Origin: Marsupella aquatica | Taxonomy: Eukaryota > Plantae > Marchantiophyta | Reading direction: 5' to 3' | Assembly: GCA_973895155.1 (NCBI GenBank) | Contig: OZ316895.1 | Coordinates: forward strand, 22,766,558-22,830,557 | Length of the DNA stretch: 64,000 nucleotides | In this document: piece after piece, positions 1 to 54,124 of the stretch | How positions within the stretch are numbered: position 1 is the first letter of the stretch | Layout of the letters: each line of letters begins with the position of its first letter | Translations under genes and position numbers: made by a program | Notes under the pieces: model-generated | The model's database searches: none | What the model was told of the DNA's origin: nothing | What the model saw: the letters and a program-made list of their open reading frames with translations, nothing else

Positions 1-655
1 TCGCCCAAGTCTCCTCAGTGGCATCCCCTGGAAGCGCCACAGTTGACTTTCTCCAATTCAAGTCAGCCTCCGTGGGCATGGGAATGTCATCATCATCCTC
101 CACTCCCCACACCACCACCATTTCTCCCGTTTGCTCATCACGCATTTTGTATGCCCCAGGATGCATCTTACTCTCCCTATCCCTCCTGTTTCCTCTCCCT
201 CTGTTGTACCCACCTCCTCCACCACCACCACCACCACCTGAGCTCCTCCCCCCTCTGAAATTTCTGGAACCACTCCTTTCATTGTTATCCGAGCCACCTG
301 AGTATCCTCCATACCTGCTCCTGGACTCTTCCGAATCCCCGTTGCTGCTTTGATGGCCGTTAATTTGTTCTCCCAGGCCTCTGGGATGACTACTTACTGC
401 ATTTGAGCTTCTGCCACTACTGCTGTTGTAGCCATTTGGGCGACGGGAATCCCCTTTGGACCCTCTGCAGGTGACTGTCAAGGATGCGGCATTGCTGCTG
501 CTCCTCCTGAGCTCTGTCCGTTGCCGTCTCTCGCATTTCTCACTCTCATCTGCTACTCCCTCTCTTCTGCTGCTGCTGCTATTGCTGATGATGGAGTCCA
601 AGGAGGTCAGTGAGCTGACGGAAGAGCTCCAACTCAGAACATGCCCGAGATTCAT
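1..655 (-). CDS. RH50: 5' coding exon (partial, open at window edge) of a chloroplast DEAD-box RNA helicase 50-like gene
   Basis: Not in the ORF track because no stop falls inside the window. Minus frame from ATG 655 (in-frame TGA upstream near 785) is open to the edge: Ser-rich transit-peptide-like MNLGHVLSWSSSVSSLTSLDS...LTVTCRG, a Gly/Arg-rich stretch, then PGAYKMRDEQTGEMVVVWGVEDDDDIPMP, resembling the N-terminal motif I recall for plant RH50. The helicase core lies outside the window. Confidence 0.6.
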   Translation of the reverse strand, partial: MNLGHVLSWSSSVSSLTSLDSIISNSSSSRREGVADESEKCERRQRTELRRSSSNAASLTVTCRGSKGDSRRPNGYNSSSGRSSNAVSSHPRGLGEQINGHQSSNGDSEESRSRYGGYSGGSDNNERSGSRNFRGGRSSGGGGGGGGGGYNRGRGNRRDRESKMHPGAYKMRDEQTGEMVVVWGVEDDDDIPMPTEADLNWRKSTVALPGDATEETWA

Positions 656-17900: not shown

Positions 17901-18332
17901 AGGATCAAGATAAAAATCTAGATATTTTTGAGCATTGACAAAAGATTTCAATCGTATCTGCAATTTTTTTTGGATAATTTGTAAAGGGGGCATGCATATA
18001 TTGTCCAATATGTATGCCCCAAGGACCAATTTATGTCATTGGGATAACAATTAATGAAAAATTAGGTAATGCTTATATATTTTTAAATAAGAATGAACAA
18101 TCATGATTCATGAAATAACATAATATTGAGCATTTTTATCTTCTATATTTTATTACATTTTGATTTGTCATGATTTTGATAAGTTTAGAAAATTGAATAA
18201 AAGAATATGTTGTTGTTTGATGCTTTCTGTAAAACTATGATTATTATCATAGGTTGAGGTTGGACATTGTTTGAATAATATGTGATCAAATTTTGTTTTG
18301 TGAGTTTGCTTTGATGATTACGTGTTTAGGCT

Positions 18333-18634
18333 TTGAATATTGGGTAACCAGGTTGTGAAAGAATGACTAACACTAAATACATTCCGATCAATTTTTTAAA
18401 TTCAGACTTGAATATTAATATTTCAATTAATTGAATTTTTAAATTTAGGCTTGAATATTAGCAGTACTTCCTCGGAGGAGAAATTGAATATTGGGTAATC
18501 AGGTTGTGAAAGAATGACTAACACTAAATACATTCCGATCAATTTTTTTAAATTCAGACTTGAATATTAATATTTCAATTAATTGAATTTTTTAATTTAG
18601 GCTTGAATATTAGCAGTACTTCCTTGGAGGAGAA
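18333..18634. repeat. Tandem duplication of about 151 bp
   Basis: ttgaatattgggtaa...gcagtacttcct.ggaggagaaa at 18333 and 18484, near identical. Confidence 0.9.
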
Positions 18635-19216
18635 ATGTCTACTACATCCCATTCTTCCGACACAGATTTGTCACCAAATGAGATGCCCAAAAAGAGGCGT
18701 AGGAGTCAAAGGGGAACCAAAAGTTTATTGTAGCAAGTGAGAGAGTTAAGAAACGAATGCAGAGAGAGGGAGAGAAAGTGCGAATAGATGGAGAGAAAGT
18801 GCGAATAGATGGAGAGAAAGTGGACAAAGAGATTCAACAACATGGAAGGTGACGCTGAAGTATTAGCAGAGGTCCCAATAAAAACTTTAGCCGGAGACAT
18901 TGTATCGTTTATTAGAGTTAAAAAGGAGAACCAATGTCCTACGAGATTTGGGACTTTTTTTCATGACACAAAAATCAAAATTCTAGCAAATGCATTGAGC
19001 ATGGACAAAGCTGCTCTTACAACTTTATGCCATGGATGTCATTCAGATAGGAATGAGGCTGTCCATTGTGAGGATATTGAGTTGTTGAGAATCGAAGTGA
19101 AGAAATTCTCTTTATATTTCGAGAGATATCCAGGTTTAAAGTCTAAATTTTGCAAACAATATAGCTTAATTGTAAAGTTTGATAGTATTGATAATATGAT
19201 GCAACAGTGGTATTAG
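18635..19216 (+). pseudogene. Disrupted ORF of unknown origin (possibly transposon-derived)
   Basis: ATG 18635 MSTTSHSSDTDLSPNEMPKKRRRSQRG (NLS-like), then an in-frame TAG, a 21-nt internal repeat, and a 135-codon open frame 18809-19216 in very AT-rich DNA. No family recognised. Confidence 0.3.
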
Positions 19217-19316
19217 GATTCTTTATGACTGTCAAAAAATTAAATTATCATAAATTTGCATCAAAAACAAAAGAAAAAGTTTGAGACCCTCACTTGGGGG
19301 TTTTACTTCTACAAAT

Positions 19317-19577
19317 TGGCACATCATGTGCAACAAAGTATAAGGTCATTTTATTGGTTCTGAGTGAATACTTAAAAAATTATTGGACAAATATTAGGGT
19401 CTTTTAAATCTAATTTTGGAAGTTATAAGAACATTAGGGCCTTTTAATCAAGTTTTTGTAATATTCCAAGAACATCTAGCTTTATAAGGGTTAGAAAAAT
19501 AAGAATTCTTAAATTTTAGGAAGTCCAAGGCCTAATATGTCACAGGTGATGATGAGGCCTCCACATAATGAGACCCC
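19317..19577 (+). repeat. Dispersed ~265-bp repeat, copy 3
   Basis: tggcacatca...ggtcattttattggttct...cataatgagacccc, homologous to 9269-9535. Confidence 0.75.
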
Positions 19578-20356
19578 AAAGGCCCTCAATAGTTCATGAA
19601 GCCATTTGTAGTTGAGAGGTACCTTTACTCACGTACATTCACATTTTATTGTATCTACAATGATAACTGTAAATTTTTTACTAGCCCTTACTTGTCTTCT
19701 GACCTTTGTTTCTATGACAATATTCATAAAGTGTTCCCAAAAAGGTAGAATGCACCTGCCAAAATTTCTTAGTAAAACCAAGAATAAAACACTCATAAGC
19801 TACAAGATATGTATGATAAAATTTATGGTGTTTCTTTAGTGGCAAAAATTGCTAGAGTCCAGCTCTCCAGAATGTTTTTGCCAGTTTGGCAAAATTTTGT
19901 TAGGTTTTTTTTGTGTCTCACTAGCCAGAATCTAATAATCTTACTCAAATCTAGTGAGATCTAATGGTCAGAAAAAAATTGCAAACATTGCTAGCATCTT
20001 CTCCATTCCACAAAGGTCTCCACTCTGGCCAAAAAGGAAAAACCTTAGACATTACACTGGCAGGGACTCTGGCAAAAAAGAAAAAAAAAACCTTAAAGAT
20101 TATATTGGCAGAGGGTTATGAGCTATTACACAAGGTAATGTAGCGTGCAAGGAAACAGTAAACAATTCACTTGCATGAGCAAAAACTTTCTTCACATGAC
20201 CCCTAATTTTTCAATATCCAATTGCCTTGCTAACAGTAACATAACATCCATTTTGGGGACTCCTCTTTTTGCTAGCTATCTCACTAGTCATCTGGAATCA
20301 TAAATAACACACAAAAAATATGAAAGGTAGCAAAAGAAATTCAGAAACACAAGTGT

Positions 20357-20550
20357 CTCGCTAACAAAATTCCTGTTTGCTCGCATTATAGAATACCTCT
20401 CATACACACAACAATCCCCTCGCTAACAAAATGACTCTTTGCTTTGCTGGCATTATAGAATACCTCTCCTACACAAATGAAAACGATCCCCTCGCTAGCA
20501 AAATTCATGATTGCTCGCATTATAAGATACCTCTCCTCCACAAATGAAAA
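20357..20550. repeat. Three degenerate ~60-70 bp tandem units
   Basis: ctcgcta(a/g)caaaat...gcattata(g)aatacctctc...acac repeated three times. Confidence 0.75.
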
Positions 20551-21882
20551 GGACAAATTAAGGTGTCAGCGAGCTCTGATGTGCCTCCGACCTAAGGTAT
20601 CCTGTGCCTTTCTCGAGCTTTTACGAAAATGATCAGAACCTCCAAGCTCATAGGTGCAGCATCAGAATCGTTCCTCCTCGTTGCCATGATTGTGTTCCCT
20701 CTCATCCTCCTCCTCAACAGATTGATATGCCACACCAGCTACGTGTTGCACATTGAGCTCTCCATATCTCTTCACCGGATGTTCGGTCGTCACTCAACCT
20801 AATAAATCGTGCTGCTGATCGAGCTCTCCGCTGCTTTCAATAGTAAGTTGCTCTTATGTTTCCTTTATATAGTTTAAATCTGGGTTCTGCTCTATCTAGG
20901 AATGCTCGCACTCGCAGGCTGTCCCCTGTAGAGCTCATGCTCTCTGTTTAAAGCTCGAGGCGTCCGCTGGATCAACAAAACTTCCTCTCCCTGGGCTGTC
21001 AGAATCAAATTCAAGATTATTTTGGGAAGGAATTGGAGTGTTCCCCGATGGCATTATGAATGTTCCAGCACGTGAGGGATTGAATTTGTTTTCTGCTTTT
21101 ATTTCTGGTTGATCAATGATGATACTGCTATGATTCATGCAAATAGAGATTCGGGACTATTTCCGTGAAATCGACTCAAACAACTGGCAGTCACCCAAGA
21201 TGTTGGTGCACATGCATCAACATTTCGAAGAGCGGAAAGTCACATCCAAATGGAATCGAAATAGAATTGGAAGATGGAAATCATAGAAAGCAATCCGAAC
21301 TAGTTTGAGTGCGTCAGCCTGAGAAGTAAGTGCAAATATTTACTTCAAATAATTCGAACTCACTTCAGCTTTAATAGGATAAGCCACGCTGTCAATCGAT
21401 TCTGACAAGGGGTCGACTAGCTGAATGGATCGATTAGTCGACTAGACGAAAGTAGGCATTTGATCCAAACCTTTTACTTAAGATTGATTGAGAAACGTCT
21501 GATTATAAGACGACAACGAAGGAAATTGAGCAATTTGAGAATGTACTGAAACTAGTCTTGACGACTTAGAAACTAGGACCTGTACGCGAGTTCTTCCATT
21601 GCATACAAATCTCGCAGCGTTTCTTGTTTTTGGTGCTGCGCACTGGGCAGGCAGAGCACACCACAAAGTACAGAGCTGCATCTTTGCGGGTAATCCTTGG
21701 TAACGTAGGGTAACTCACCGTGCGTTCTGTGAGTATCATCCATTCCTCCTCAGATGTGGACTGACGTTTACCCTAAACCCTGACCCGTTTTTATTAGGTG
21801 AGGTAGTACGCGAGAAGCCAAACAGAGGACGAGTGACTGACTGCAGGGGACGCACAGAGCAGAGCGAAGGAGGTCGGAGGAG

Positions 21883-24208
21883 ATGGCGGATCAACCTGCT
21901 CGAGCTTTGATCGTTTACGGGGACGGCCTAGTCAGAGGCGTTGAAGCTCGCCATTCTCATATCCATGCTGTAGCTGCTGCTGGATGCTGTGGCTTCCTCG
22001 CTTTGCGGACTCAAGTTTCTCAAGAATGCTCTCCTGGTATGTTGGTCCCTATTTCAAATTCTGCTTATCATTTTACCCATCCTCGATAGGTATCTAAATT
22101 CCAAGCTTAACCGCACTCGTTTTAAATGTCTCCCTCGTCATTGTTCCTGCAATACTTCCTTCCAAACTTTCTTTGGTATATTCCTGTCGTGTTGTGCTTA
22201 CGAGAAAGATATCTTCGCTTGAAGGAGTGTGATCAGTCATTTTCCTACACTGAACAAATTATATTGTTTCCCTAGTCCACAATTTGAAAATTCTGATATG
22301 CATATTCAAATAGAGTGAGCGACGACGAGTAATGTTACGAAGTTCGACTGAAAATTGTGTACTCCATCACAAAATAGCAGATGATGACGAGAACAGAGTA
22401 ATTGGCGAGCTGGCACAACTTTTAGATCTTCACGATATTTATCAAGTGAGTGAGTGTCTTCTTTTGTTACAATCTCCTCCAGTCAATAAGAGTGCCCATC
22501 AAAAATGCTGTAAGCTACACAAGAATTTGTCTTATCAAACTTAGACTAGTCTAGCATCACCTGGCAGCTGATTGCAAATATTTACCTACCTGAACAGAGA
22601 AATCATTTTCATTTCTCAATGGCTATTGTTTGAAGTTCATGCATGTGACCATGAGTTGTCAATAAGTTCTCAGGAGAGTTCTCCCTTGTGCTTGGATTTA
22701 CACCTTCATGCAGAATTTATTCTATTGTTACTTGGTTTGGCGTCTGTGTTGACCAATTTGGTATAGGATAGGGATGTATGTATTATTGCAGATTAATATT
22801 TCGGTGGTGGGTCTGCAGAAAACAGCAGCTGCACGGGTGGGTATTACCTCTGATAGCACTATAGCTGAAGAAGAGCAAATTCCGTCCATGTCTGATAGGT
22901 GTGTGTCCTATCTGGACATTTCATGCCCACACTAAATATATTTGCTCTATTTGATGCGTACTTCCATCATGCCGTGTCTGTCTTATTTTGGAGGATAACC
23001 GACAATGAGCTGGATGATTGGCCCCATCTCTATTAGCTATGTTTTGTGCTCTCAAGTCGTTTCTAGAGTACTAAAATTTTATAATGCAGTAGTTGTGGGA
23101 ATCGTCTTGGGTTGATTCACCTACTTTGCTTCGTGCTTTGTCCCTGGAAGATATAATGACAGTCACGGTCATTAGCTATTATATGTGGAAACTTATCGGC
23201 CGTTGATGTTATCTTGCAGATTTATGGGTATCAAAGCATGCATGTTCACCAACTCGGGGCCTGCATCAGCACTTGGCAAACAAGCCGGCTTCTCTTTGCT
23301 GGAGGTGCAGGAGGGTAACCCAGTTTTTGATGATCATGCACCTCCAGACGCATCCACGACAGCAGCCCGGTTTCTAAGCTTGCTAGGTTTGCAAGAAGGT
23401 ACCGCCAACTCAGAGCAGACTAATTTTGACCTCCTGCTATTACATCTATCTGTCAAAGAGCAACTTTGCGGTCAACAAGTTGACTGGGTGGATTCATTAC
23501 TCGGGGAGCTTCAAGCAGCGGCAAAGCCTGGAACCGAGGCTGGCAGTCATTTATATCTTATCGTAGTGCTAGGGTTCGGGCCTGTTGCGTCAAATAAAGA
23601 CGATGGGTTCCCATTAGTTGTAGCGGATGAAAGACTTGCACCAAAATTTACCCAGCTGTTTCCTCAACAAAGCTATAAGAGGAAAGGAGGTCATCCTGTT
23701 GACGATGCCAGGTGAGTAGAGCTATTTCTAAGTATTCAAAACTTTTCACAACTGTATATTCTCTTGGGCCCTCTATACTGATTAAGATGCTGGGAGAAAC
23801 AGTAGCAGCCAGACTTGCACCAAATTGCAAGGAGTACACAATGCAAGTTGGTTACCACTGACGGTGTCTACATGCAGGGAGCATCATCCCTTGTTGGTTG
23901 CATACCACCTGGACGCTGTGACTCGGCGTGATGACGTGAAAATGTTTAATTACGACGAGTTTCAAAAGGTTTGTACCCTCTCCAACATGCTTGCCGATAC
24001 TCTGTCCTTACCTTAGAGATGGTATGTCCTTTGCAATAGCTCTGACTGTGGGAATCGCTTATCAGATTGAAGTCTTACTCTCATCTGCAATTTGTTGATC
24101 TTGCAAATTATTTCGCTGCAGCTCAGTGGAAATTTGACCATCCTTGTTGACCAATTCTTGGCCGAGATTGCTTTCAAGCTTTGGAAAGCTCCAAAGTATG
24201 GGGCGTGA
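21883..24208 (+). CDS. Conserved plant protein of unknown function, 6 exons, about 322 aa; degenerate ApgM/alkaline-phosphatase-superfamily-like
   Basis: Exons 21883-22036, 22381-22445, 22819-22898, 23220-23711, 23878-23968, 24122-24208; GT-AG and phase-consistent. Begins MADQPARALIVYGDGL and ends FLAEIAFKLWKAPKYGA*, matching my recollection of a plant uncharacterised family (Arabidopsis AT5G11810-like). Confidence 0.9.
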
Positions 24209-43910: not shown

Positions 43911-44780
43911 TGCTCCACTGGCATGGCAGGGCCGCTCCGCTCCGATCTCCTCCTCGAACGGGCCTCTCAGAAATCTGCTCGTCCTGCGCTCCACAATGTC
44001 AAGTACATAACTATGGTGACGGACAGTCGCTGCTTGGTTCCCTCACAGTTCAGAAGCAGTACTTGAATTTGTGTCCTAGGAAGGGTGATGAATCCTCGCG
44101 TGAGCACAGAAACCGGGGAATCGATTCTCAAAGGTAGTAGAGTGATGGTGTTCGAATAGATCCCTCACAAGCTCCAGAGGCATGAATGGAATTCGAGCTT
44201 TAGGGAGCGCCTAGGGTCGTGGCGCTAGCCCCGGGACAAGGGAGAGGACGCTCAACGGTAGAAGTAGACAACTAGACATTGTTCGAATGTATTGCTCCAG
44301 AGTCACTGAATTGAATTGCAGCTCTAGGCCGCCCAAGGTGGTTCACATTGTTTTGATTGTCTTGTAAGGTCCTAAACACTAGCCTCGTGAATGGAACTTG
44401 AGAGAGATGCTAGGACGGAAGCGGGGAAAACGACGTCCACATTTGATGCACTGTGCATTGTTTGCATTCGCGTCATTGTTTCCATGTCGACTTGGAAGAC
44501 GTTGAAGGTGCTTCAGAACTGACTCTGTCCTTCAACCAATTGTTGCAGGTGACGGTATTTCGTGTGTCTCTGCAGAAGCTTGTGACCGAGTCTCGAAGTG
44601 TGAGAAGGATCCCAACTGACAATTTCGGGTTTCTCGGAATTCGGACTGAGCCGGGAGGAGGTATAAGGGGGAAGGGTGCCGGAGGAGGTATCGATGCGTT
44701 AAATACGGCGCTCCCTGTTTGGACCCGAGGAGACACAAGTGGGCAAGGAGCTGGAGTAGGAGGTGGTGAAGTCTGAAGAT

Positions 44781-45152
44781 ATGGGGCTGCTTGCAGGGCC
44801 TCTTTCGCATGACGCAATTAGTTGCCTCAGCAACGCGGACGCGAATTTGCGTCCCGTATTGCAAGTGCTGCACGTCAGGCGAGTCAAGAGCAAGCTGGAA
44901 CTTTATAGTCTGCTACTATCCGACGGGCTGCACGTGCTGCCGGTGATGCTCGCGATGAAACTCAATGAGTATGTCAAGACCGAGACACTGACTAAGGGCA
45001 CCATACTGCATCTCTTGGAGTACATGTCTCACACCATTCAGGATAGACTCGTCACGTTTGTTCTGGACATAGAAGTTCTGCAAGCAGCATCTGATATCAT
45101 TGGTTACCCGCGATGCCTGCCACCTGCTATGAGTAAATGTTCAAAGAATTAG
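44781..45152 (+). CDS. Stand-alone RPA70/RPA1 N-terminal OB-fold (Rep-A_N) protein, 123 aa
   Basis: ATG 44781 with in-frame TAG upstream at 44757. LSHDAISCL...LRPVLQVL...YSLLLSDG...MLAMKLNEYVK...KGTILHLLEY...VLDIEVL...IIGYP follows the RPA70N consensus. No DNA-binding OB-A/B/C domains found downstream. Confidence 0.78.
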   Translation: MGLLAGPLSHDAISCLSNADANLRPVLQVLHVRRVKSKLELYSLLLSDGLHVLPVMLAMKLNEYVKTETLTKGTILHLLEYMSHTIQDRLVTFVLDIEVLQAASDIIGYPRCLPPAMSKCSKN

Positions 45153-46749
45153 ACACTTCATCTCCGAGATCTAAGTGGACATTAACTGGACCATCCTGTG
45201 TATTCACGAAACAGACACAAGATCGATATGATAGATTCTGGATACACCTACATTTGAATTTCATGAAGAGTAGACAGGTCAGACAAATAAAAAGTTGACA
45301 TGACAATTTTTCCTTCCGCTGCGGCGTATTTGCCCTGAAAACATGTACGGTTTTTTGTATCATTCAGCCAATCTAGTGTAAAACCAGGCGACTTGGCTAA
45401 TGGGATTCGATCTACAGGCTCGTTCATCTACAAGTGGGGAACATTCGTGTCTTCTTGAAATCTATTGCTGTAAAGTAGGGATTCAATACTCAAAACGTCT
45501 TACGTCAAATCTGAGTCATCTAAAAGGATAGTATGGAGTACTTGTCACAAACCATTGTTGCCCCTCGCTTTCCATCTGCTAATTGGACCCCCAACCTCGT
45601 TAATTCTGGTTAATGTTGCACTGCGCAGTCAGGGGAGGAAGCTGGCAAACCTATATGGTCAAAACTGAATAAGTCCCTCATACAAACGATACAATCATGT
45701 CTAAACGTTGCGTCGATGAAATTTCAATCAACTCTGTTAAATTAACAACGAGACAAAAAGTTGACCAGAATAAAAAAAAAAGCTTCATATCGCTGGTCTT
45801 AGCCCAAGACGAAATCCTTCGTCAAAGCCCTGTGCATAAGGCCTGACCCTCCATCCTACACACAAGCTTCGGTCATCTTCGTGCAAGTCGGCACGATTGC
45901 TTTATCCTCCCCATAGGTCTGACCCGTTTTTCAGGTATTCCACACGAATCCAAGACAACTTCAATGACGTCAAGAACATCAACTTGTGTCGCCAAGAATG
46001 TCGAGGTGGAGGGTTCTCAGTTCCCTGCCCCGACAAATTGGACACCAATCTTTGTGTTGTTCAACATGTTTCTCATGCTCTTCGTACGTCGGACTTGTCC
46101 GCCCAAATGCATGACAATAGTCAATCAAATCAAGAAACATCGACTTGAGTTGCCGAAGAAAGTCGAAGCAGAACGCAGGGACCTCAGTTCACCAGCCTCG
46201 ACGAATTGAAGACCATCAAGCGACACTCATCAGGTATGGAAGATGAAGCTCGTGGCGTACATGAAAAATTAGGGCGAATGAAAACCGTATGAAAACTATT
46301 CACAATGGAGCAATGATATTGGGATGAGAATGTGCCTATGAAATTAAGGGTCCCGACGATGCTAGGCCTGTGAGTGCCCCAACATTAACACAGAAAATTA
46401 CCACCACAAAAATTGCGTCTCGATCTGGCTCCATGGGAGATTTCCAATGTACAGTACATTTTTCTTACGTTTCAACAGTCAGTGTTACTTGAATTGTGTT
46501 AGAAACAGTCCCATCTTGATCGTGACGAAAGCTTAACATCGATGCCGACTACCCATGTTATCTACACCATCACGCGCACGAACTCATCGAACGACTGAAC
46601 ACATTTTACAGTGACACAAATCTGGTTCATTCTCTCCTGCACTAAAATTCAGTTATTTGAGGCCAGGGAGATTCCAGGACGGGTGTCAAGACCACCAACT
46701 GACGATCTTATGCCAGGGAATTTAGTTCAAAATGCAGAGCGATCTCAGT

Positions 46750-49198
46750 CCTGTTTGCAATAATGAATGGGATTCCTATAATCACCACTCACAGATAACC
46801 AAATTCATTTTAGGAAGAAAACAATCCGGACCCTAGAATTATGTCATGAATATGGCAACAAGAACGGATATTAGCATAGGAGAAATGCAGGGCACAATAG
46901 TGCTAGACCAGGAAATGCTCGATTACAACACACGTCAGTACATACCTTCTGTTTGCATACCGGTCCAAATGCAACTTCACCAAGATGTTCCACAAAAATA
47001 AGCATCGACGATGCAAAAACCTACACAGTGCCAAAAAAAACTGTACAGAAAAGGTATTTGCCTAAGAAGCAAGGATCATTTGCACACTTCTCAAATTAAG
47101 TACGAATTGGTGAAAGCTCTCGGTAAACTGGGTTGGAAGGAATGCAACACCATAACGGTGATGGGATAAGGCAATAGAAAGTAACCACCAAATGATGCAA
47201 AGAGTTTCAGGAAGAAATGGAAAGCCAGTACCTTAGGAGGTTGACGAAGAAGAAACATAAGCCAAAACACATGTGCTCGATGCACTACTCAATCTCTTGA
47301 TCCAATCCAGTGCACCTGCACCATTAGAGCAGACACCTAAAATAAAATAAACTGCGGTCGTCGTATGGGGACATCCACGCTAAGAACCTATCTTGACAGG
47401 ATGAGGACAATTTTACGGAGTCAAACCAAGCTAGAAGAAACTCATCCATATCTCTAAGACGTCCCTCGTCTTCATGAGTGCAGTCAAAGTTATGAAATGC
47501 TTTGCGAAACAAAATCTCTTAAGGTTCATATCCCGTAAAGAATTCAAACCATGCTAAAGCGCAACGTACGTCAAATCTGAAGGAATACTTCAAAGATCGG
47601 AGACGCATGACATAGCAGACCATTCAACCACTAGATCGACAACTGCGATCACGAGGCTTTGAAGAAACATTCATGGTAGCATTCACTTACAACCTCTCCT
47701 ACTCTAGACCTTAGCGGACTTCGTGCCAATTCCTTGCGGTACGAAGTAGAAAAGCTCTGTAGTCATCATGTGCGGGTCAATTTCTTGCATAACAATTATA
47801 TGTACGGTATTTCAAGAACGTTGCTAGAAACCCCATCATCATTGTAGAGCTCACGGGCGATACACAATGCACAATGTTCTCCAAGATCAGTTTAAACACC
47901 GATATGCTTGAAAGAACAACATTCTCTCGTGCTACGAAATTCCATTTGTGCAAACCTCATAGACATCTGACGCGACCAAGACTTGAGATGTGTATCACTG
48001 GTCCAGTCATATGCATAAGATTAAGAGTGTCGTTATTCTCCAGTCCTTACATAGATTGGCAAATAACGTGTGCAAGGACAGCCCTGACTCCCCTTGTGCG
48101 AGGACTTGGTCTCTAATCTGAAGAGCTTTGTGACAAGAGAGTTACAAGAAAGCAAATTCACACGAGGACAGAACCAGAAAACTCACCACTTCAAACCTCA
48201 TCTACGGAAGTACATCCCAAAAATGATTCATAACAAAATCACATTCAAGAACTGCAACACCTTACAAAGACAAAATTCCATTCAGAACACCCGGTGATAC
48301 ATATAAAAGGAATACTAAAGGTATAGAGTTCGCAATTTGGTCTTACAGCTCCTGACGTCTGCAGAAAATGGGGTCTGTGGAGCATTAGCAATCTAATGTC
48401 CCCTACATAATATGTTTTTAACAGCTCATACTGAACAAACTATCTTGAGATACAATCGAAGTAAACAAAATTACCTTTTCGTTTTAGCTGCCTCTGAACC
48501 ATATTCTTGGCAACAGTGAGCATCGAGTCCACCATGCTCTCTGCTCACCACCAAATGTAACTAGCCCAACAGAGGTCAAAGACAACCACCATAACAGTGC
48601 ACTGCTATTGAGAATCTTGAGGTAATTTACAATCAGAAGCACGCGTGAAGTAATTTCACACTTCTGCAGTATCATCACATGTCAAGGGGGAGGTCATAGC
48701 TGCATCTCAACCTGACTCTTATGGAACTTGGAATCCAGTGCATATTACTGCAGTTCGACTCCAGCCATATAACTCACCGTGCAGGATCTAACAAAGTGGT
48801 TGTGACTGCAAAGTAAACTCATGAACTCTCTGCACAGCTTATAAAATCTACCCATATTTGGCATGGAGTTACAAGTTCCACCATTGCCACCGCCACAAAA
48901 CGTAGACAGCAAGTGATATCATTTTCGGTGCATCGTATAATCACCGGGTCCAGTTGATGGAAGGCATTTTCAAAACTGCGCAACCCAAGCTCACCCTTGC
49001 GACTCCCAAAAATCTGCATAATTTCTTTTGTTACTTCACAATCAATTGGGCATGAATGGCAACCTCATATCCTCTAAAAGTGCTGCACACTTAAACTTGC
49101 ATACCGATGCACCTCTTTATTGTCCAAGAGGAGTAAAACAATTGGGCTGCGGCATGTCAATGGCGATAAAGGTCTCCATCAGATCCGTCCACCTTACA
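46750..49198 (-). other. Putative multi-intron non-coding 3' extension of CDKG (micro-exon array)
   Basis: Series of minus-strand YAG|exon|GT pairs: 48995-49013, 48778-48805, 48475-48540 (or -48493), 48347-48358, 48187-48201, 47691-47756, 47570-47576, 47232-47315, 46946-47040, final acceptor at 46751. Joined exons give no long ORF. Predicted from motifs only. Confidence 0.5.
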
Positions 49199-49228
49199 TT
49201 TAGGTGGCAGCGTCGAGGTCCCAGATAA

Positions 49229-52200
49229 TCAGCCAAAGAGGCCCCCTCCACCGAGCTCACCTTGACGCAGCTCCCGCCTCCGCTGTTCCTCCAATGGATC
49301 TGGGCTCTTCAGGAGCCTCCTTACTCGCCTGCAAGGGGAAGTAAAACTATCAGCGGTTACAATCTACAACATCAAACGGTTACACAACACCAGCTTTGTA
49401 TTTCATCTGGAAAGAATTTAATGAGGATCAGAAATGATGACGTATACACGACGCTACTCGTTTTTTTATATGACGTGGTGCCCATTCCTATGTTGTAGCA
49501 TACCTGTCATGTTCACTCCGCGCTGGAAAAGTTGGCATAAATTCTTTGGACTTTGGCAGCGGCACTTCGCGAAACCAATCGTGTTTCAGTGCCTCGTCCG
49601 CTGTTATTCTCTGCGAAACGCGAATTATACACATCAGTGAGCAGCAAGCCATCAGACAAAAAAAACATTTCGCAAGGAGCTGGTACACCCTATTCTTTGA
49701 AGCCAGAGGTACGTATACAAAGGGATACAGCACTCAGTCTGAATCCATCATCAGGAACAAGAGTTTACAGTCTACAACATTTACTGCCCAATTAGTGAGT
49801 GAGAAGTTTACTTTTTGAGGGTCGTAAGTAAGTAATCTGTTGAGTAGATCAAACCCACTTTCAGATAGAGTAGGCCTACCAGCAAACGCTGTCGGTGGAA
49901 ATCTTTCTCTGAGTTTATTGTAGCTGCAAGTACATTCGAAAATTCGTCATGATAAACTCAGGGTCTGCAGTACAGAATGCTTACTATGGTGTAGAAATTA
50001 TCACACATCGGCGACTACAATCATCTGGTAGAATCATACATTACAAATACAGACAACATAAAACTGCCAAGAAGCGCAGTCCGGATGCTTACGGCTGTCT
50101 CACGAAATTACACTTCACGCCAGGTAGCTTCGGAAACTCCGGCCAAATTTTTTCATTGGGTGTACCCAATGTTTTGAATATCTGCATTAAAACACACAGT
50201 GATAAAACGTTACTCCGATAGAACAAAGATCAAAATTGAAACATCACCCTTTTAAGTGACAATCGTTAAGTGACAACTTTCCGAGAAGCAATACTACAGA
50301 CCCTCGGATGGATAATTTTGCACTGGTTTTGCTAATCACAGACATCCCTGAACGTAATTGTTGATACATCACATTCTTTGCAGCCCAAGAGAAAACCTAC
50401 TAAGCTCAAACCCTGAAACGTGAGCTATCGTCAAGCAAGCCTCAAGAAATTTGCGTGCATTAATGTTAAACTGTCATCTAATAGTACCAACCTTATCAAT
50501 CTGATCGATTTCAGAATTTCCATTGAAAAGAGGCTCTTTGGCAAGAAATTCGGCCATTATGCAACCCAATGACCACATATCTATAGCAGTTGAGTATTGA
50601 TAATTCTTTGGTCCGAGCAGTAACTCTGGTGCCCTGTTTCACACATAACATCGGAATGAAAACTCGAAAATTTCAATTCCATTGGTGTTTACTAATTCTT
50701 GTCAGGAGTATCAACAATGGAAAACTGCCGCAGGCACAACAGCCAACGAGAAGCAGATGATAGAAAGTAGCGGCGATACAAACAGACATCGATAATATCA
50801 CTCATGAGAAGGTAGGTATCCAACCTGTACCAAAGTGTAACAACCATGTTCGTATAAGCCTTTAACGGGCTACCATACTGCCGTGCCAGTCCAAAGTCAC
50901 AAATTTTGAGTTCCCCGCGATTATTCATGAGCAAATTGGACGTTTTCAAGTCTCTGCAAAATCATGACGCACAGAAGGTGATCCCGTGATCAGTAACTTG
51001 ACCGAACGGATGAGATTCCTTTCCAAAAGCCAATGGGCAGAACTTCACGGTAGGTCAGGTTACTTCAACCTTTCATCGGAATGGATCCCTGCAAGCACAA
51101 TAAGGAAAGGGACTGCACAAGAGCTGATTTAGGATAGTGAGGGGCAGCTCGGTTAACTAACCTGTGCAACACCCAGTTGTCGTGCAGATATTGTACCCCT
51201 TCAAAAAGCTGTAGCATAAGGCATTTGACTTCACTTTGACTGAAAGGCTGCTTCATGGTTTCCATAAGGCCCTTCAAATCATGTTCCATGTACTCCATTA
51301 CCATAAAGATGCTGTCTATGGTGCTACCTACAACAACCTCTTTGACATCAACTACCGAGGAATGATGAAATGATAAGAGTACATTGATTTCCCTGAGAGA
51401 GGTCTGCGGGAACCCGTCTTTTTCCTTATCCATCTTAACCTTTTTCAACGCGACAATCTCTCCGGTCCTCTTATTTCGAGCACGGTACACAACCCCATAT
51501 GTCCCTTCATCGATTCTGTTCAACCTCTCAAATTCGTCCACACTTCTGCAACCTTGAAGCATATCAATGGCTCGCGATAATGGTTGAGGGGGTGTTGGTG
51601 GAACATCATCATACTCAGGATCAACCTCAGGCCTCTGCTCTTCTTGATCATCGACATCAGAGTCCTCTTCGTCCAGCTCCATCAATTCTCTCTTATTCAA
51701 CTCTCGTTCGTACTCCTCGTCTTCAATCGACCGACTCCGCCGGCCTTTACCATCACTACCGCGTCCCACGCTTCCATTACTGTCTGTGCCTCTCTCCTTA
51801 GCCCTTGGAGCAACGTCAGCCTTCTCTGGAATGTACTCACCAGGCTGCGGAGACGAACTACGCCCACTAGTAACATGTCCGCCGTCTTGACCTGAAGAAA
51901 TGAGACCCTCTTCGCTCTCTAAACTCGAAGAGCGCTTCCTTGCCTTCCCTCCACCACCACGAGGAGACCTACCCCGTTCGGGGGTGTGAGTCTCTCCTGC
52001 CCACCGAGAGGCCGCAATCGTGATTATAGGCGATGGGGCGTTTCCTTCCTCATCCTCCTCAACTCTCCCCGGACCTGTCCTTAAAGGAGGGCTGTCATCA
52101 GATTCGGGAAACAGCTGCCCGGGCTCAGGCTCATCATCTGACATTGAAGAAGCCATGACCTGATCCTGCATTTGCACATCCGGCGTATGTTTCTCGTTGT

Positions 52201-54124
52201 GAATCTCTCCAACCAAAGGAGAATCTCGAATCCGCTCCGAAACCGGCCGGGGAGTTAAGTCCTGGGGGCTTATGGAGAGACTACGCACTCTATGGCCCCC
52301 AGCCGAACCACGCGGAGTTGCTCGGCCAGACGATGGTGGCTTGGAAGAGGGCGACGACAAGTTTTCGTTTGAAGTTACTGGGGACGACAAAACCTGGACT
52401 GGTGCAGAAGACTGGACCAGGGAGACTTGAGAAGGTTGAGAGGATCCCGAGCCAAACTTTGACACGGAGAGGGATACTGAAGAAGAAGCTCCCATGGCAC
52501 CGCTTGACAGCTTGTTACTACTCGGTCGGGCCTGCTTCTCATCATAGTCCCAAACAATTGGAGAATACTTACGTTTTTTAGTAGGGCTGCTGCTGCGGTT
52601 GCCTCCTCCGCCACCACCAGGCATCTCTCCTGCTGATGATGGCTTGTTCATATTATTGCTATTATTATTATTCCGGGCATTTCTTGAGTGTAACGACGAC
52701 ATCATCGAAATCGAAACGTCTGGTCGCCAACTGATCTCTTCTACTCTGCGCCCTAAACTCGGCAACTCCCCTGGTTCCATCTCCACATCCTTTCCCGATG
52801 GCAGCCTTGCCGTTCCTGAGCTTCTCATCTCCCCTAAATTATCCGTCTCCTTGTCCAAGACGCCATCACTGACTGGAGACACGGAATTTCGAACAATGGA
52901 CAGACTTACTGAACCGCCAACAGTACCCACGGACGGTGGCCTGCCGAACAATAATGGACTTGGAGCTCGATCTCCTCCCACAACTGCTTCTCCTCCCACA
53001 TGTCGCCGCTGTTGTAGATGCCTGCTGCTACTCAAATCCCTCTCCCTGCTGCTGCTCAAGTCTCTCCCCCTGCTGCTATTTAAGTCCCTCTCCCTGGTAC
53101 TGCTCAAATCTCTCTCCTTCTTGTCTCTCTCCCTCACATCCCGCTCCCTATCCATCTTATCTCCTCCTCGCCCCCTGTCCGAAGACGGCTCCCAATCCCT
53201 ATTTCGGTCGCTACGGTCTTTCTCCTTTCCATATCCTCCTCCACCTGCTCCTTCTCTGCTCTCCCTTGCCGAGAAAGAATCCCTTGCCAATATATCATCC
53301 CTCATAAGATTCCGCGACCTGTAATCCTTCCCTACATCCCTTCCTCCTGCATCCCTCCCTGCGTCCCTTCCTAAATCCCTCCCTGTTTCCCTACCTGCAT
53401 CCCTTGCTCCATCCCTTCCTAAATCCCTTGCTGCATCCCTTCCAGCATCTCTTCCATCATCTCTTCCTCCATCCCTTACGCCATCCCTTACGCCATCCCT
53501 TACAGCATCTCTCCCTGCATCCCTTCCAGCATCTCTTCCTCCACTTCTTCCACCATCTCTTGCATCATCTCTTCCTACATCCCTTAACCCATCTCTTCCT
53601 GCATCTCTGCCAACATCTCTGCCTGCATCCCTTCCTACATCCTTTCCAGCATCCCTGCCCGCAACCCTTCCTACTTCCCTTCCAGCATCTCTGCTTAAGT
53701 CTCTTCCTGCTTCTCTTCCTGCTTCTCTTCCTGCGTCCCTGCCCGAATCCCTTCCGACAACATCTCTGCCACCGTCCCTGACTGTATGATGATTACCACT
53801 GCTATTGACATTGCTTCTATCCCTGTCCCTATCCCTCGCTACATCCCTCGACGAATAACCCTCAGACCTGGACCTTTCCCGGTCTCGGTCCCGATCCCTC
53901 TCAAACGCTTCAAGATCTCTCCCTCCCCCTCCACCAACGCCACCATGATCCCTTTCGCGACCCCCTCCGCCACCGCCCCCGCCTCCGAGTCCAGACGCCG
54001 GTTTATCCCCTCCACCGAGGAAAGAGGCAGACGAAGACGAGGAAATCCTACTCTTCCCTCCCGACGACAGTCCTCCTCCTGCAGCAAGCGACAGCGGTGA
54101 AGTGTGATTTCGTCCTGCTGCCAT
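49229..54124 (-). CDS. CDKG: Cyclin-dependent kinase G (CDK11/PITSLRE class), 7 coding exons
   Basis: Exons 51162-54124, 50825-50953, 50492-50633, 50093-50181, 49812-49923, 49504-49610, 49229-49328. Motifs [67 protein letters not shown]-terminal [12 protein letters not shown]...GGGGLFG*. Confidence 0.96.
53330..53780 (-). repeat. Coding 12-nt repeat encoding (GRD[A/V/G/L])n in the CDKG N-terminus
   Basis: Roughly 35 imperfect tetrapeptide units [16 protein letters not shown]; + strand period-12 pattern catcccttccwg. Confidence 0.92.

What the first reader, a model, noticed from the sequence alone, without database searches (positions are those of the whole stretch)
46750..49228. Array of about ten non-coding exons, many of them micro-exons, behind the CDKG stop codon
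Seen: the 2.5 kb after the CDKG TGA (49229) carries a dense same-strand series of acceptor/donor pairs enclosing tiny exons: tatgcag|19 nt|gtgagc, tttgcag|28 nt|gtgagt, ttctgcag|12 nt|gtaaga, ccgtag|15 nt|gtgagt, ccttcag|7 nt|gtacgt, plus 66-95 nt exons. Spacings of about 110-430 nt match intron sizes in neighbouring genes. A first donor lies 31 nt after the stop (49197) and an AATAAA at 49116-49121 sits inside that first putative intron. Joined exons hit stops quickly. Established: CDK11/CDKG kinases control spliceosome activity, and introns more than ~50 nt downstream of a stop trigger EJC-dependent NMD in plants. Inference: competition between proximal polyadenylation and splicing into this array could let the kinase sense splicing efficiency and down-regulate its own mRNA; alternatively it is a separate small-RNA host transcript.
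Basis: partly seen in the sequence, partly recalled or inferred. Interest (0 to 1): 0.78.

Follow-up and report, generated by a model that had tools for sequence, protein, structure and literature searches.

The report
Splice-site array in kinase mRNA tail
Behind the stop codon of a liverwort's splicing kinase gene (CDKG) lies an unusually dense run of splice signals that likely forms a multi-intron untranslated tail, as seed-plant relatives of this gene have, and that would let splicing lower the kinase's own mRNA level.

Summary
Splice-site pairs on the CDKG strand are 2-3 times denser than in shuffles (0-47 of 500, 25-30 of 1000 reach the count) and as dense as in real genes of the window. 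No RNA run of this organism was listed, so no single exon is proven; most sites are weaker than true coding-region sites. The organism is a leafy liverwort (kinase 96% like Calypogeia). The candidate exons look non-coding: no homologue, and variation at the neutral rate (6 of 40 listed differences in 15% of the DNA). The best support comes from relatives: seed-plant CDKG2 genes keep three or four 3'UTR introns at conserved places, and transcript contigs show them both spliced and retained. The liverwort tail matches these in position only, not in sequence. Best reading: an alternatively spliced 3'UTR, coupled to polyadenylation choice and NMD, like SMG7, Barentsz or THIC. Feedback by the kinase itself is untested here, and the one Arabidopsis test of a CDKG2 3'UTR intron showed no change with temperature or in CDKG/cyclin L mutants.

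The parts
49229..54124 (-). CDKG (CDK11/PITSLRE-type kinase) coding region, 7 exons, 1213 aa, ends in the family's usual C-terminus
   Evidence: Six GT-AG introns give one open frame; nearest protein Calypogeia fissa, 96% over the kinase part
49255..49260 (-). Strong donor 31 nt before the stop, inside the last coding exon; if used it would remove the stop and splice into the array
   Evidence: Score 9.9, above 27 of 33 training donors; a Riccia gene model leaves this exon at the same residue; may be a by-product of codon usage
49192..49197 (-). First donor after the stop (junction 31 nt from the stop, too close to trigger NMD)
   Evidence: Sequence; weak, 3.6; position +3 differs in organism B
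49116..49121 (-). AATAAA, candidate proximal poly(A) signal inside the first putative 3'UTR intron
   Evidence: use not tested
48995..49013 (-). Candidate exon 1, 19 nt (88 nt with the alternative acceptor at 49083); acceptors at +146 and +215 and donor at +235 from the stop resemble seed-plant positions
48778..48805 (-). Candidate exon 2, 28 nt (52 nt with the stronger acceptor at 48830); preceding intron 189 nt
48475..48540 (-). Candidate exon 3, 66 nt, both sites strong
   Evidence: scores 9.2 and 9.2
48347..48358 (-). Candidate micro-exon 4, 12 nt
   Evidence: acceptor 7.6, donor 0.8, below all training donors
48187..48201 (-). Candidate micro-exon 5, 15 nt
   Evidence: acceptor 3.8, donor 7.7
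48051..48117 (-). Candidate exon 6, 67 nt; weak sites, only 69 nt from exon 5
   Evidence: scores 3.7 and 1.3
47570..47576 (-). Candidate micro-exon 7, 7 nt
   Evidence: scores 8.3 and 6.4; flanking differences in organism B keep both motifs
47232..47315 (-). Candidate exon 8, 84 nt (105 nt with acceptor 47337); stop codons in all three frames
46946..47020 (-). Candidate exon 9, 75 nt (60 nt with donor 46960); strongest donor of the array
   Evidence: scores 7.2 and 11.0
46637..46751 (-). Candidate acceptors of a terminal exon (46751, or the stronger 46637); 3' end unknown
   Evidence: scores 5.3 and 10.8

Best explanation
The region is likely an alternatively spliced, non-coding 3' tail of the CDKG mRNA, in which splicing past a predicted proximal poly(A) signal would leave exon junctions far behind the stop codon and would send that mRNA to nonsense-mediated decay. 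Shown: the splice-signal excess on the CDKG strand, the lack of coding signs, and spliced or retained 3'UTR introns in seed-plant orthologues. Inferred: that several of the liverwort's sites are used (the strong ones, exons 3, 7, 8, 9 and the first two, more likely than exons 4-6); that retention of the first intron exposes the AATAAA and gives a short stable mRNA; and that junctions at 78 nt or more from the stop trigger NMD. Speculative: that CDKG activity itself shifts this choice and closes a feedback loop (about 0.25).
For: Pair density 9-11 vs 3-6 in shuffles and 0-4 antisense, equal to the window's multi-exon genes and above the five other 3' flanks in the window (2-7 pairs). Among 13 non-redundant seed-plant CDKG 3' regions, four sites recur: donor at +62..+89 in 11, donor at +253..+316 in 11, acceptor near +450..+500 in 10, donor at +519..+584 in 9 (two of these hits fell on a neighbouring look-alike, and the alignments show the true site in both). 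Transcript-type contigs: the 72-nt intron is spliced in 3 and retained in 5 of 11 (3 undetermined); the ~190-nt intron is spliced in 1 and retained in 7; the 1017-nt intron is spliced in 4 and retained in 2; a 987-nt intron is spliced in 1. The pattern reaches L046, which groups with Cryptomeria (93/84). Liverwort positions (+146/+215 acceptors, +235 donor, 189-nt second intron) resemble these. Junctions more than 50 nt after the stop trigger NMD in plants (PMC3711448, passages) and predict NMD targets in moss (PMC6009662, section 16). No downstream minus-strand gene was found to own these exons (0 of 33 frames with a Pfam hit at cut-off).
Against: A profile of 11 seed-plant tails finds nothing in the window (best E 11). 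Five sub-profiles find nothing in the first kb, and local alignments to 11 relatives do not beat shuffles (5-37 of 40 reach the score). The Sphagnum-identical loci show no such density (1 sense vs 3 antisense). Most array sites score below the training median, two donors below all 33, and branch-point motifs are not enriched (3 of 10). Three of 40 listed differences in organism B hit donor position +3, two of them towards a weaker base. In Arabidopsis the annotated CDKG2 event, which maps to a 112-nt 3'UTR intron at +104..+215, did not change with temperature or in cdkg/cycL1 mutants, and CDKG1 L/S isoforms were not NMD targets (PMC6032924 section 7).
Confidence: 0.6

Rival explanations
1. Most sites are cryptic or chance motifs in an ordinary 3' flank; CDKG ends at the proximal AATAAA, with at most one or two real 3'UTR introns.
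For: Region picked after the fact; enrichment only about twofold and lost for micro-pairs at the strictest threshold; weak sites and one 69-nt spacing; no branch-point excess; no constraint visible in exons, 6 of 40 differences vs 5.9 expected; no sequence homology to relatives.
Against: Only 2 of 236 other tiles reach the pair count, both inside a real gene; strong strand bias, GTRAG 11 vs 1; relatives have real 3'UTR introns; 0 of 12 listed indels and 0 of 40 substitutions touch exon frames or GT/AG, though neither is significant (P 0.15; 0.64 expected).
Confidence: 0.22
2. A separate multi-exon long non-coding RNA starts just behind the CDKG 3' end, with no small RNA cargo, and is not part of the CDKG mRNA.
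For: Ten introns is far more than the three or four seen in seed-plant CDKG tails; an AATAAA could end CDKG at about 49100; no sequence likeness to CDKG tails.
Against: No room for a promoter between the stop and the first acceptors (+82 to +215); the first donor lies in the CDKG last exon; no Rfam family, no C/D box pair, no local hairpin.
Confidence: 0.1
3. The exons encode, or once encoded, a small protein or an alternative CDKG C-terminus reached through the donor at 49260.
For: Exons 5, 6, 7 and 9 can join to a 68-codon ATG frame; the donor at 49260 is strong and a Riccia gene model extends the protein from the same point.
Against: 68 codons is the best of 512 exon subsets in three frames; exon 8 has stops in all frames; the differences in exons 6, 8 and 9 change the residue in every open frame; no Pfam hit; no homologue for the exon 6 frame at either length range; the four hits for the exon 9 frame are weak, and the three read are repeat-built sequences; the Riccia tail has no match here (best E 0.025 in a 5-kb subject).
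Confidence: 0.08

Closest known systems
Plant SMG7 and Barentsz 3'UTR introns (NMD autoregulation; PMC3711448, passages read)
   Same: Introns after the normal stop; a stop-proximal intron too close to trigger NMD followed by distal ones; structure conserved while sequence is not.
   Different: One or two introns, not up to ten; no micro-exons; the products are NMD factors, and NMD sensitivity was shown by mutants and reporters, which is untested here.
Seed-plant CDKG2 3'UTR introns (this work; one Arabidopsis event annotated as AT1G67580.2 in PMC6032924 Table S2)
   Same: Same gene family; alternative donors and acceptors in the first 600 nt after the stop at similar distances; second intron about 190 nt.
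   Different: Three or four introns with exons of 60-120 nt; no detectable sequence match to the liverwort; Arabidopsis keeps only the proximal part.
THIC 3'UTR splicing / 3'-end switch (PMC10226581, passages read)
   Same: A poly(A) site inside a 3'UTR intron: retention gives a short stable mRNA, splicing a long unstable one.
   Different: THIC is switched by a TPP riboswitch; no Rfam family was found here or in five relatives.
NMD escape by intronic polyadenylation in human genes (PMC13187750, abstract read); poison-exon autoregulation of splicing factors (e.g. PMC11357089, search listing only)
   Same: Polyadenylation and splicing compete to decide NMD sensitivity; splicing regulators limit their own level by unproductive splicing.
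   Different: Those involve premature stops in poison exons, not the normal stop of a full-length kinase.

Membership tests
3'UTR-intron NMD-regulated mRNAs (SMG7/Barentsz type) | A spliced intron more than 50 nt after the normal stop | not testable with these tools
   No RNA of this organism; predicted junctions lie at 31, 50, 78 ... 404 nt. Met in seed-plant orthologues.
3'UTR-intron NMD-regulated mRNAs (SMG7/Barentsz type) | Intron arrangement conserved among orthologues | tested here: inconclusive
   Conserved within seed plants; liverwort matches in position only; Sphagnum-identical loci lack the density.
3'UTR-intron NMD-regulated mRNAs (SMG7/Barentsz type) | mRNA rises when NMD is blocked | not testable with these tools
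   One paper search for AT1G67580 with upf1 gave one unrelated listing; the moss smg1 supplement could not be read.
3'UTR-intron NMD-regulated mRNAs (SMG7/Barentsz type) | The protein feeds back on the step that destabilises its mRNA | not testable with these tools
   Arabidopsis CDKG2 event unchanged in CDKG/cyclin L mutants (PMC6032924).
THIC-type splicing/3'-end switch | Poly(A) site inside a 3'UTR intron | tested here: inconclusive
   AATAAA at 49116-49121; use unknown.
THIC-type splicing/3'-end switch | Ligand-binding riboswitch controlling the donor | tested here: not met
   No Rfam match at E up to 1.
snoRNA or miRNA host transcript | Intronic C/D or H/ACA snoRNA, or miRNA hairpin | tested here: not met
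   Rfam none; three C boxes, none with a D box 60-160 nt on; no long inverted repeat with a short loop. H/ACA RNAs unknown to Rfam were not tested.
Protein-coding micro-exon gene | Open frame across the exons with homologues and purifying selection | tested here: not met
   searches used single-exon frames, so distant homologues could be missed.

The most novel reading that the evidence does not exclude
Land-plant CDKG/CDK11 kinases carry an ancient splicing sensor in their 3'UTR, kept from liverworts to seed plants and expanded in this liverwort to ten introns with 7-28-nt non-coding micro-exons; the kinase promotes splicing of this tail and so sends its own mRNA to decay.
Probability: 0.15. 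Interest if true: 0.75.

Novelty: new variant of a known kind. Interest (0 to 1): 0.5.

Why it matters
CDKG/CDK11 kinases steer splicing, flowering time and meiosis in plants, but how their own level is set is little known. The conserved seed-plant 3'UTR introns found here are partly lost in Arabidopsis, which may be why they seem unstudied, and they can be tested at once in public RNA-seq of crops and NMD mutants. If the liverwort tail is spliced as predicted, it would be an unusually intron-rich 3'UTR with non-coding micro-exons and would date this control to early land plants.

Tried and rejected
No RNA holder listed for the region, so expression and splicing were not tested; the four runs behave as DNA and showed no joints in the array. 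No whole genome is held. Earlier scan notes: nothing. snoRNA/miRNA host: rejected. 5'UTR of a downstream gene: no minus-strand coding gene found down to about 40000. Coding exons: rejected as above; a recalled likeness of the exon 6/9 peptides to the N-terminus of the large TFIIIC subunit got no support. Sequence homology with seed-plant or moss tails: none. Conserved RNA structure in the seed-plant second intron: consensus fold only -1.4 kcal/mol, no Rfam match. A shared ORF in spliced seed-plant tails was not seen, but several acceptors in that check were misplaced by a few bases, so I do not rely on it. Two of the six training genes (RPA49-like, transporter; 4 of 33 introns) did not give an open frame when joined because other introns were missing, so their sites are unverified. 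The bacterial promoter scan is not meaningful here. Polymorphism tables were cut: 40 of 88 substitutions and 12 of 18 indels were visible. Paper searches for a description of CDKG 3'UTR introns or their NMD found only PMC6032924 and PMC7683410; subscription papers and genome-browser annotations were not searchable, and the unreadable supplement of PMC6009662 may list moss CDKG as an NMD target.

Full report
Setting. The gene upstream is a CDKG (CDK11-type) kinase on the minus strand, 54124-49229, with six GT-AG introns and one open frame of 1213 residues. Its closest listed protein is from the leafy liverwort Calypogeia fissa, then Marchantia and Riccia; a tree pairs the window with Calypogeia at 100/97 support, 96% identity. 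No whole genome is held.

Observation. A chain of nine internal candidate exons of 19, 28, 66, 12, 15, 67, 7, 84 and 75 nt, with spacings of 69-474 nt, can be drawn from donor 49197 to acceptor 46751. With a matrix from 33 introns of this window the chain count is 9 against 3.2-6.0 in dinucleotide shuffles and 2-4 on the other strand; at the strictest threshold it is 5 against 1.9, and the micro-exon excess disappears. Motif counts independent of that matrix agree: 11 pairs against 5.3 (25 of 1000 shuffles), 2 antisense, and 2 of 236 other tiles, both in eIF3a. In tiles along the window the array scores as high as the real multi-exon genes. Against this, most sites are below the median true site, two donors are below all of them, and branch-point motifs are not enriched. 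So the signal is real but moderate, and individual exons cannot be called from DNA.

Coding or not. Exon 8 has stops in all frames; the best ATG frame over 512 exon subsets is 68 codons. Pfam gave nothing for 14 frames in or near the array and one hit for an RPA1 N-terminal fragment on the other strand, and nothing at cut-off for 33 further frames. The exon 6 frame found no homologue among proteins of 24-77 or 78-2000 residues. The exon 9 frame gave four weak hits, the three read being repeat-built. Contigs of a second organism (B) differ at 88 places in 2511 nt, 40 of them listed: 6 fall in candidate exons against 5.9 expected, and those in exons 6, 8 and 9 change the residue in every open frame; none hits a GT or AG and none of 12 listed indels is in an exon, neither result significant. 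The exons look non-coding and unconstrained in sequence.

Small-RNA host. No Rfam match, no C/D box pair and no local hairpin.

Relatives. A search with the second-last coding exon returned 57 loci. Comparing transcript-type contigs (no coding introns) with genomic ones shows GT-AG introns after the stop: 72 nt at +78, about 190-215 nt from a donor near +275, 1017 nt from +542, and 987 nt further on. Of 11 transcript-type contigs the first is spliced in 3 and retained in 5, the second spliced in 1 and retained in 7, the third spliced in 4 and retained in 2; assemblies may mix isoforms or hold pre-mRNA. The four proximal sites recur in 9-11 of 13 non-redundant seed-plant loci, the body of the second intron is conserved from monocot-type and eudicot-type loci to L046, which groups with Cryptomeria, and eudicot-type loci share a distal acceptor and exon 1.1-1.6 kb out. 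L011 and L031 match a published Arabidopsis CDKG2 primer and hold a GT-AG of exactly 112 nt at +104..+215, the size of the AT1G67580.2 event in Table S2 of PMC6032924; they lack the more distal sites. The liverwort's first sites (+146, +215, +235, a 189-nt second intron) resemble this layout, but no profile or alignment detects sequence homology, and the loci identical in protein to Sphagnum CDKG show no array, though they and the moss-type transcript L001 each keep one look-alike site at the expected distance.

Mechanism. Inferred model: when the first intron is retained the AATAAA at 49116 ends the mRNA about 130 nt after the stop, with no downstream junction. When it is spliced the signal is removed and the transcript runs into the array; junctions fall 31, 50, 78 and up to 404 nt after the stop. 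Introns more than 50 nt after the stop trigger NMD in plants, and SMG7 has just such a proximal neutral intron plus a distal active one, conserved in structure, not sequence (PMC3711448, passages). Downstream junctions are a strong predictor of NMD in moss (PMC6009662, section 16). THIC uses the same splice-or-cleave logic (PMC10226581, passages), as do human cases of intronic polyadenylation (PMC13187750, abstract). Feedback by the kinase is attractive because CDKG2 and cyclin L control CDKG1 splicing, but the same paper found no change in annotated CDKG2 events with temperature or in mutants, and no NMD of CDKG1 L/S (PMC6032924, section 7 and supplement 2). PMC7683410 (passages) notes alternative introns in CDKG1 UTRs. 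Passages of PMC6987439, PMC7263676 and PMC13552211 say nothing on CDKG2 3'UTR introns.

Verdict. Likely a spliced non-coding CDKG tail (0.6); mostly cryptic sites (0.22); separate lncRNA (0.1); coding (0.08). It works like SMG7/Barentsz/THIC-type 3'UTR control; membership is untested for lack of RNA. The firmest new result is the seed-plant-wide set of alternatively retained CDKG2 3'UTR introns, which my searches did not find described beyond one Arabidopsis event. The ten-exon, micro-exon version in this liverwort is a testable prediction.

Noticed in passing
window 50092-49924 (minus); L005, L010, L013, L026, L028, L034, L045: Many annotated angiosperm CDKG2 isoforms carry a conserved frame-shifting cassette in this coding intron. 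The window's intron has an AG at 50025 and a donor at 49984 at roughly aligned places, a 40-nt candidate with an immediate stop, but its flanks (68 and 61 nt) are shorter than any training intron; there is also a strong alternative acceptor at 49965.
   Followed up: partly
window 45501-45514 and 47567-47580: An exact 14-nt repeat that is, on the minus strand, acceptor + the same 7-nt micro-exon + donor, 1.2 kb beyond the proposed last acceptor. May be chance or may mean the array extends to about 45250.
   Followed up: partly
window 49195, 48992, 47567: Three of 40 listed differences in organism B hit position +3 of array donors (0.16 expected; P about 0.0006 before correcting for the classes looked at), while none hits GT or AG. 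Unexplained.
   Followed up: partly
window 44760-45152 (+): Open frame with only the RPA1 N-terminal domain (Pfam PF04057, E 5e-18), ending in a stop; a short gene or a remnant, pointing towards the array.
   Followed up: no
L002-L004, L054: Genomic CDKG copies without coding introns in the kinase part (contigs of 9-125 kb), probably retrocopies as reported for Arabidopsis CDKG1.
   Followed up: no
window 53300-53800 (minus): The CDKG N-terminus holds a long array of short Arg-Asp-rich repeats, also present in Calypogeia but not Marchantia.
   Followed up: no
window 46206-49230 in runs X3, X4: Organism B holds in places one haplotype identical to the window and one 3-8% different, which could reflect a hybrid or polyploid.
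   Followed up: no
window 18000-22700 (minus): Tiles here also score high for short acceptor-donor pairs; not examined.
   Followed up: no
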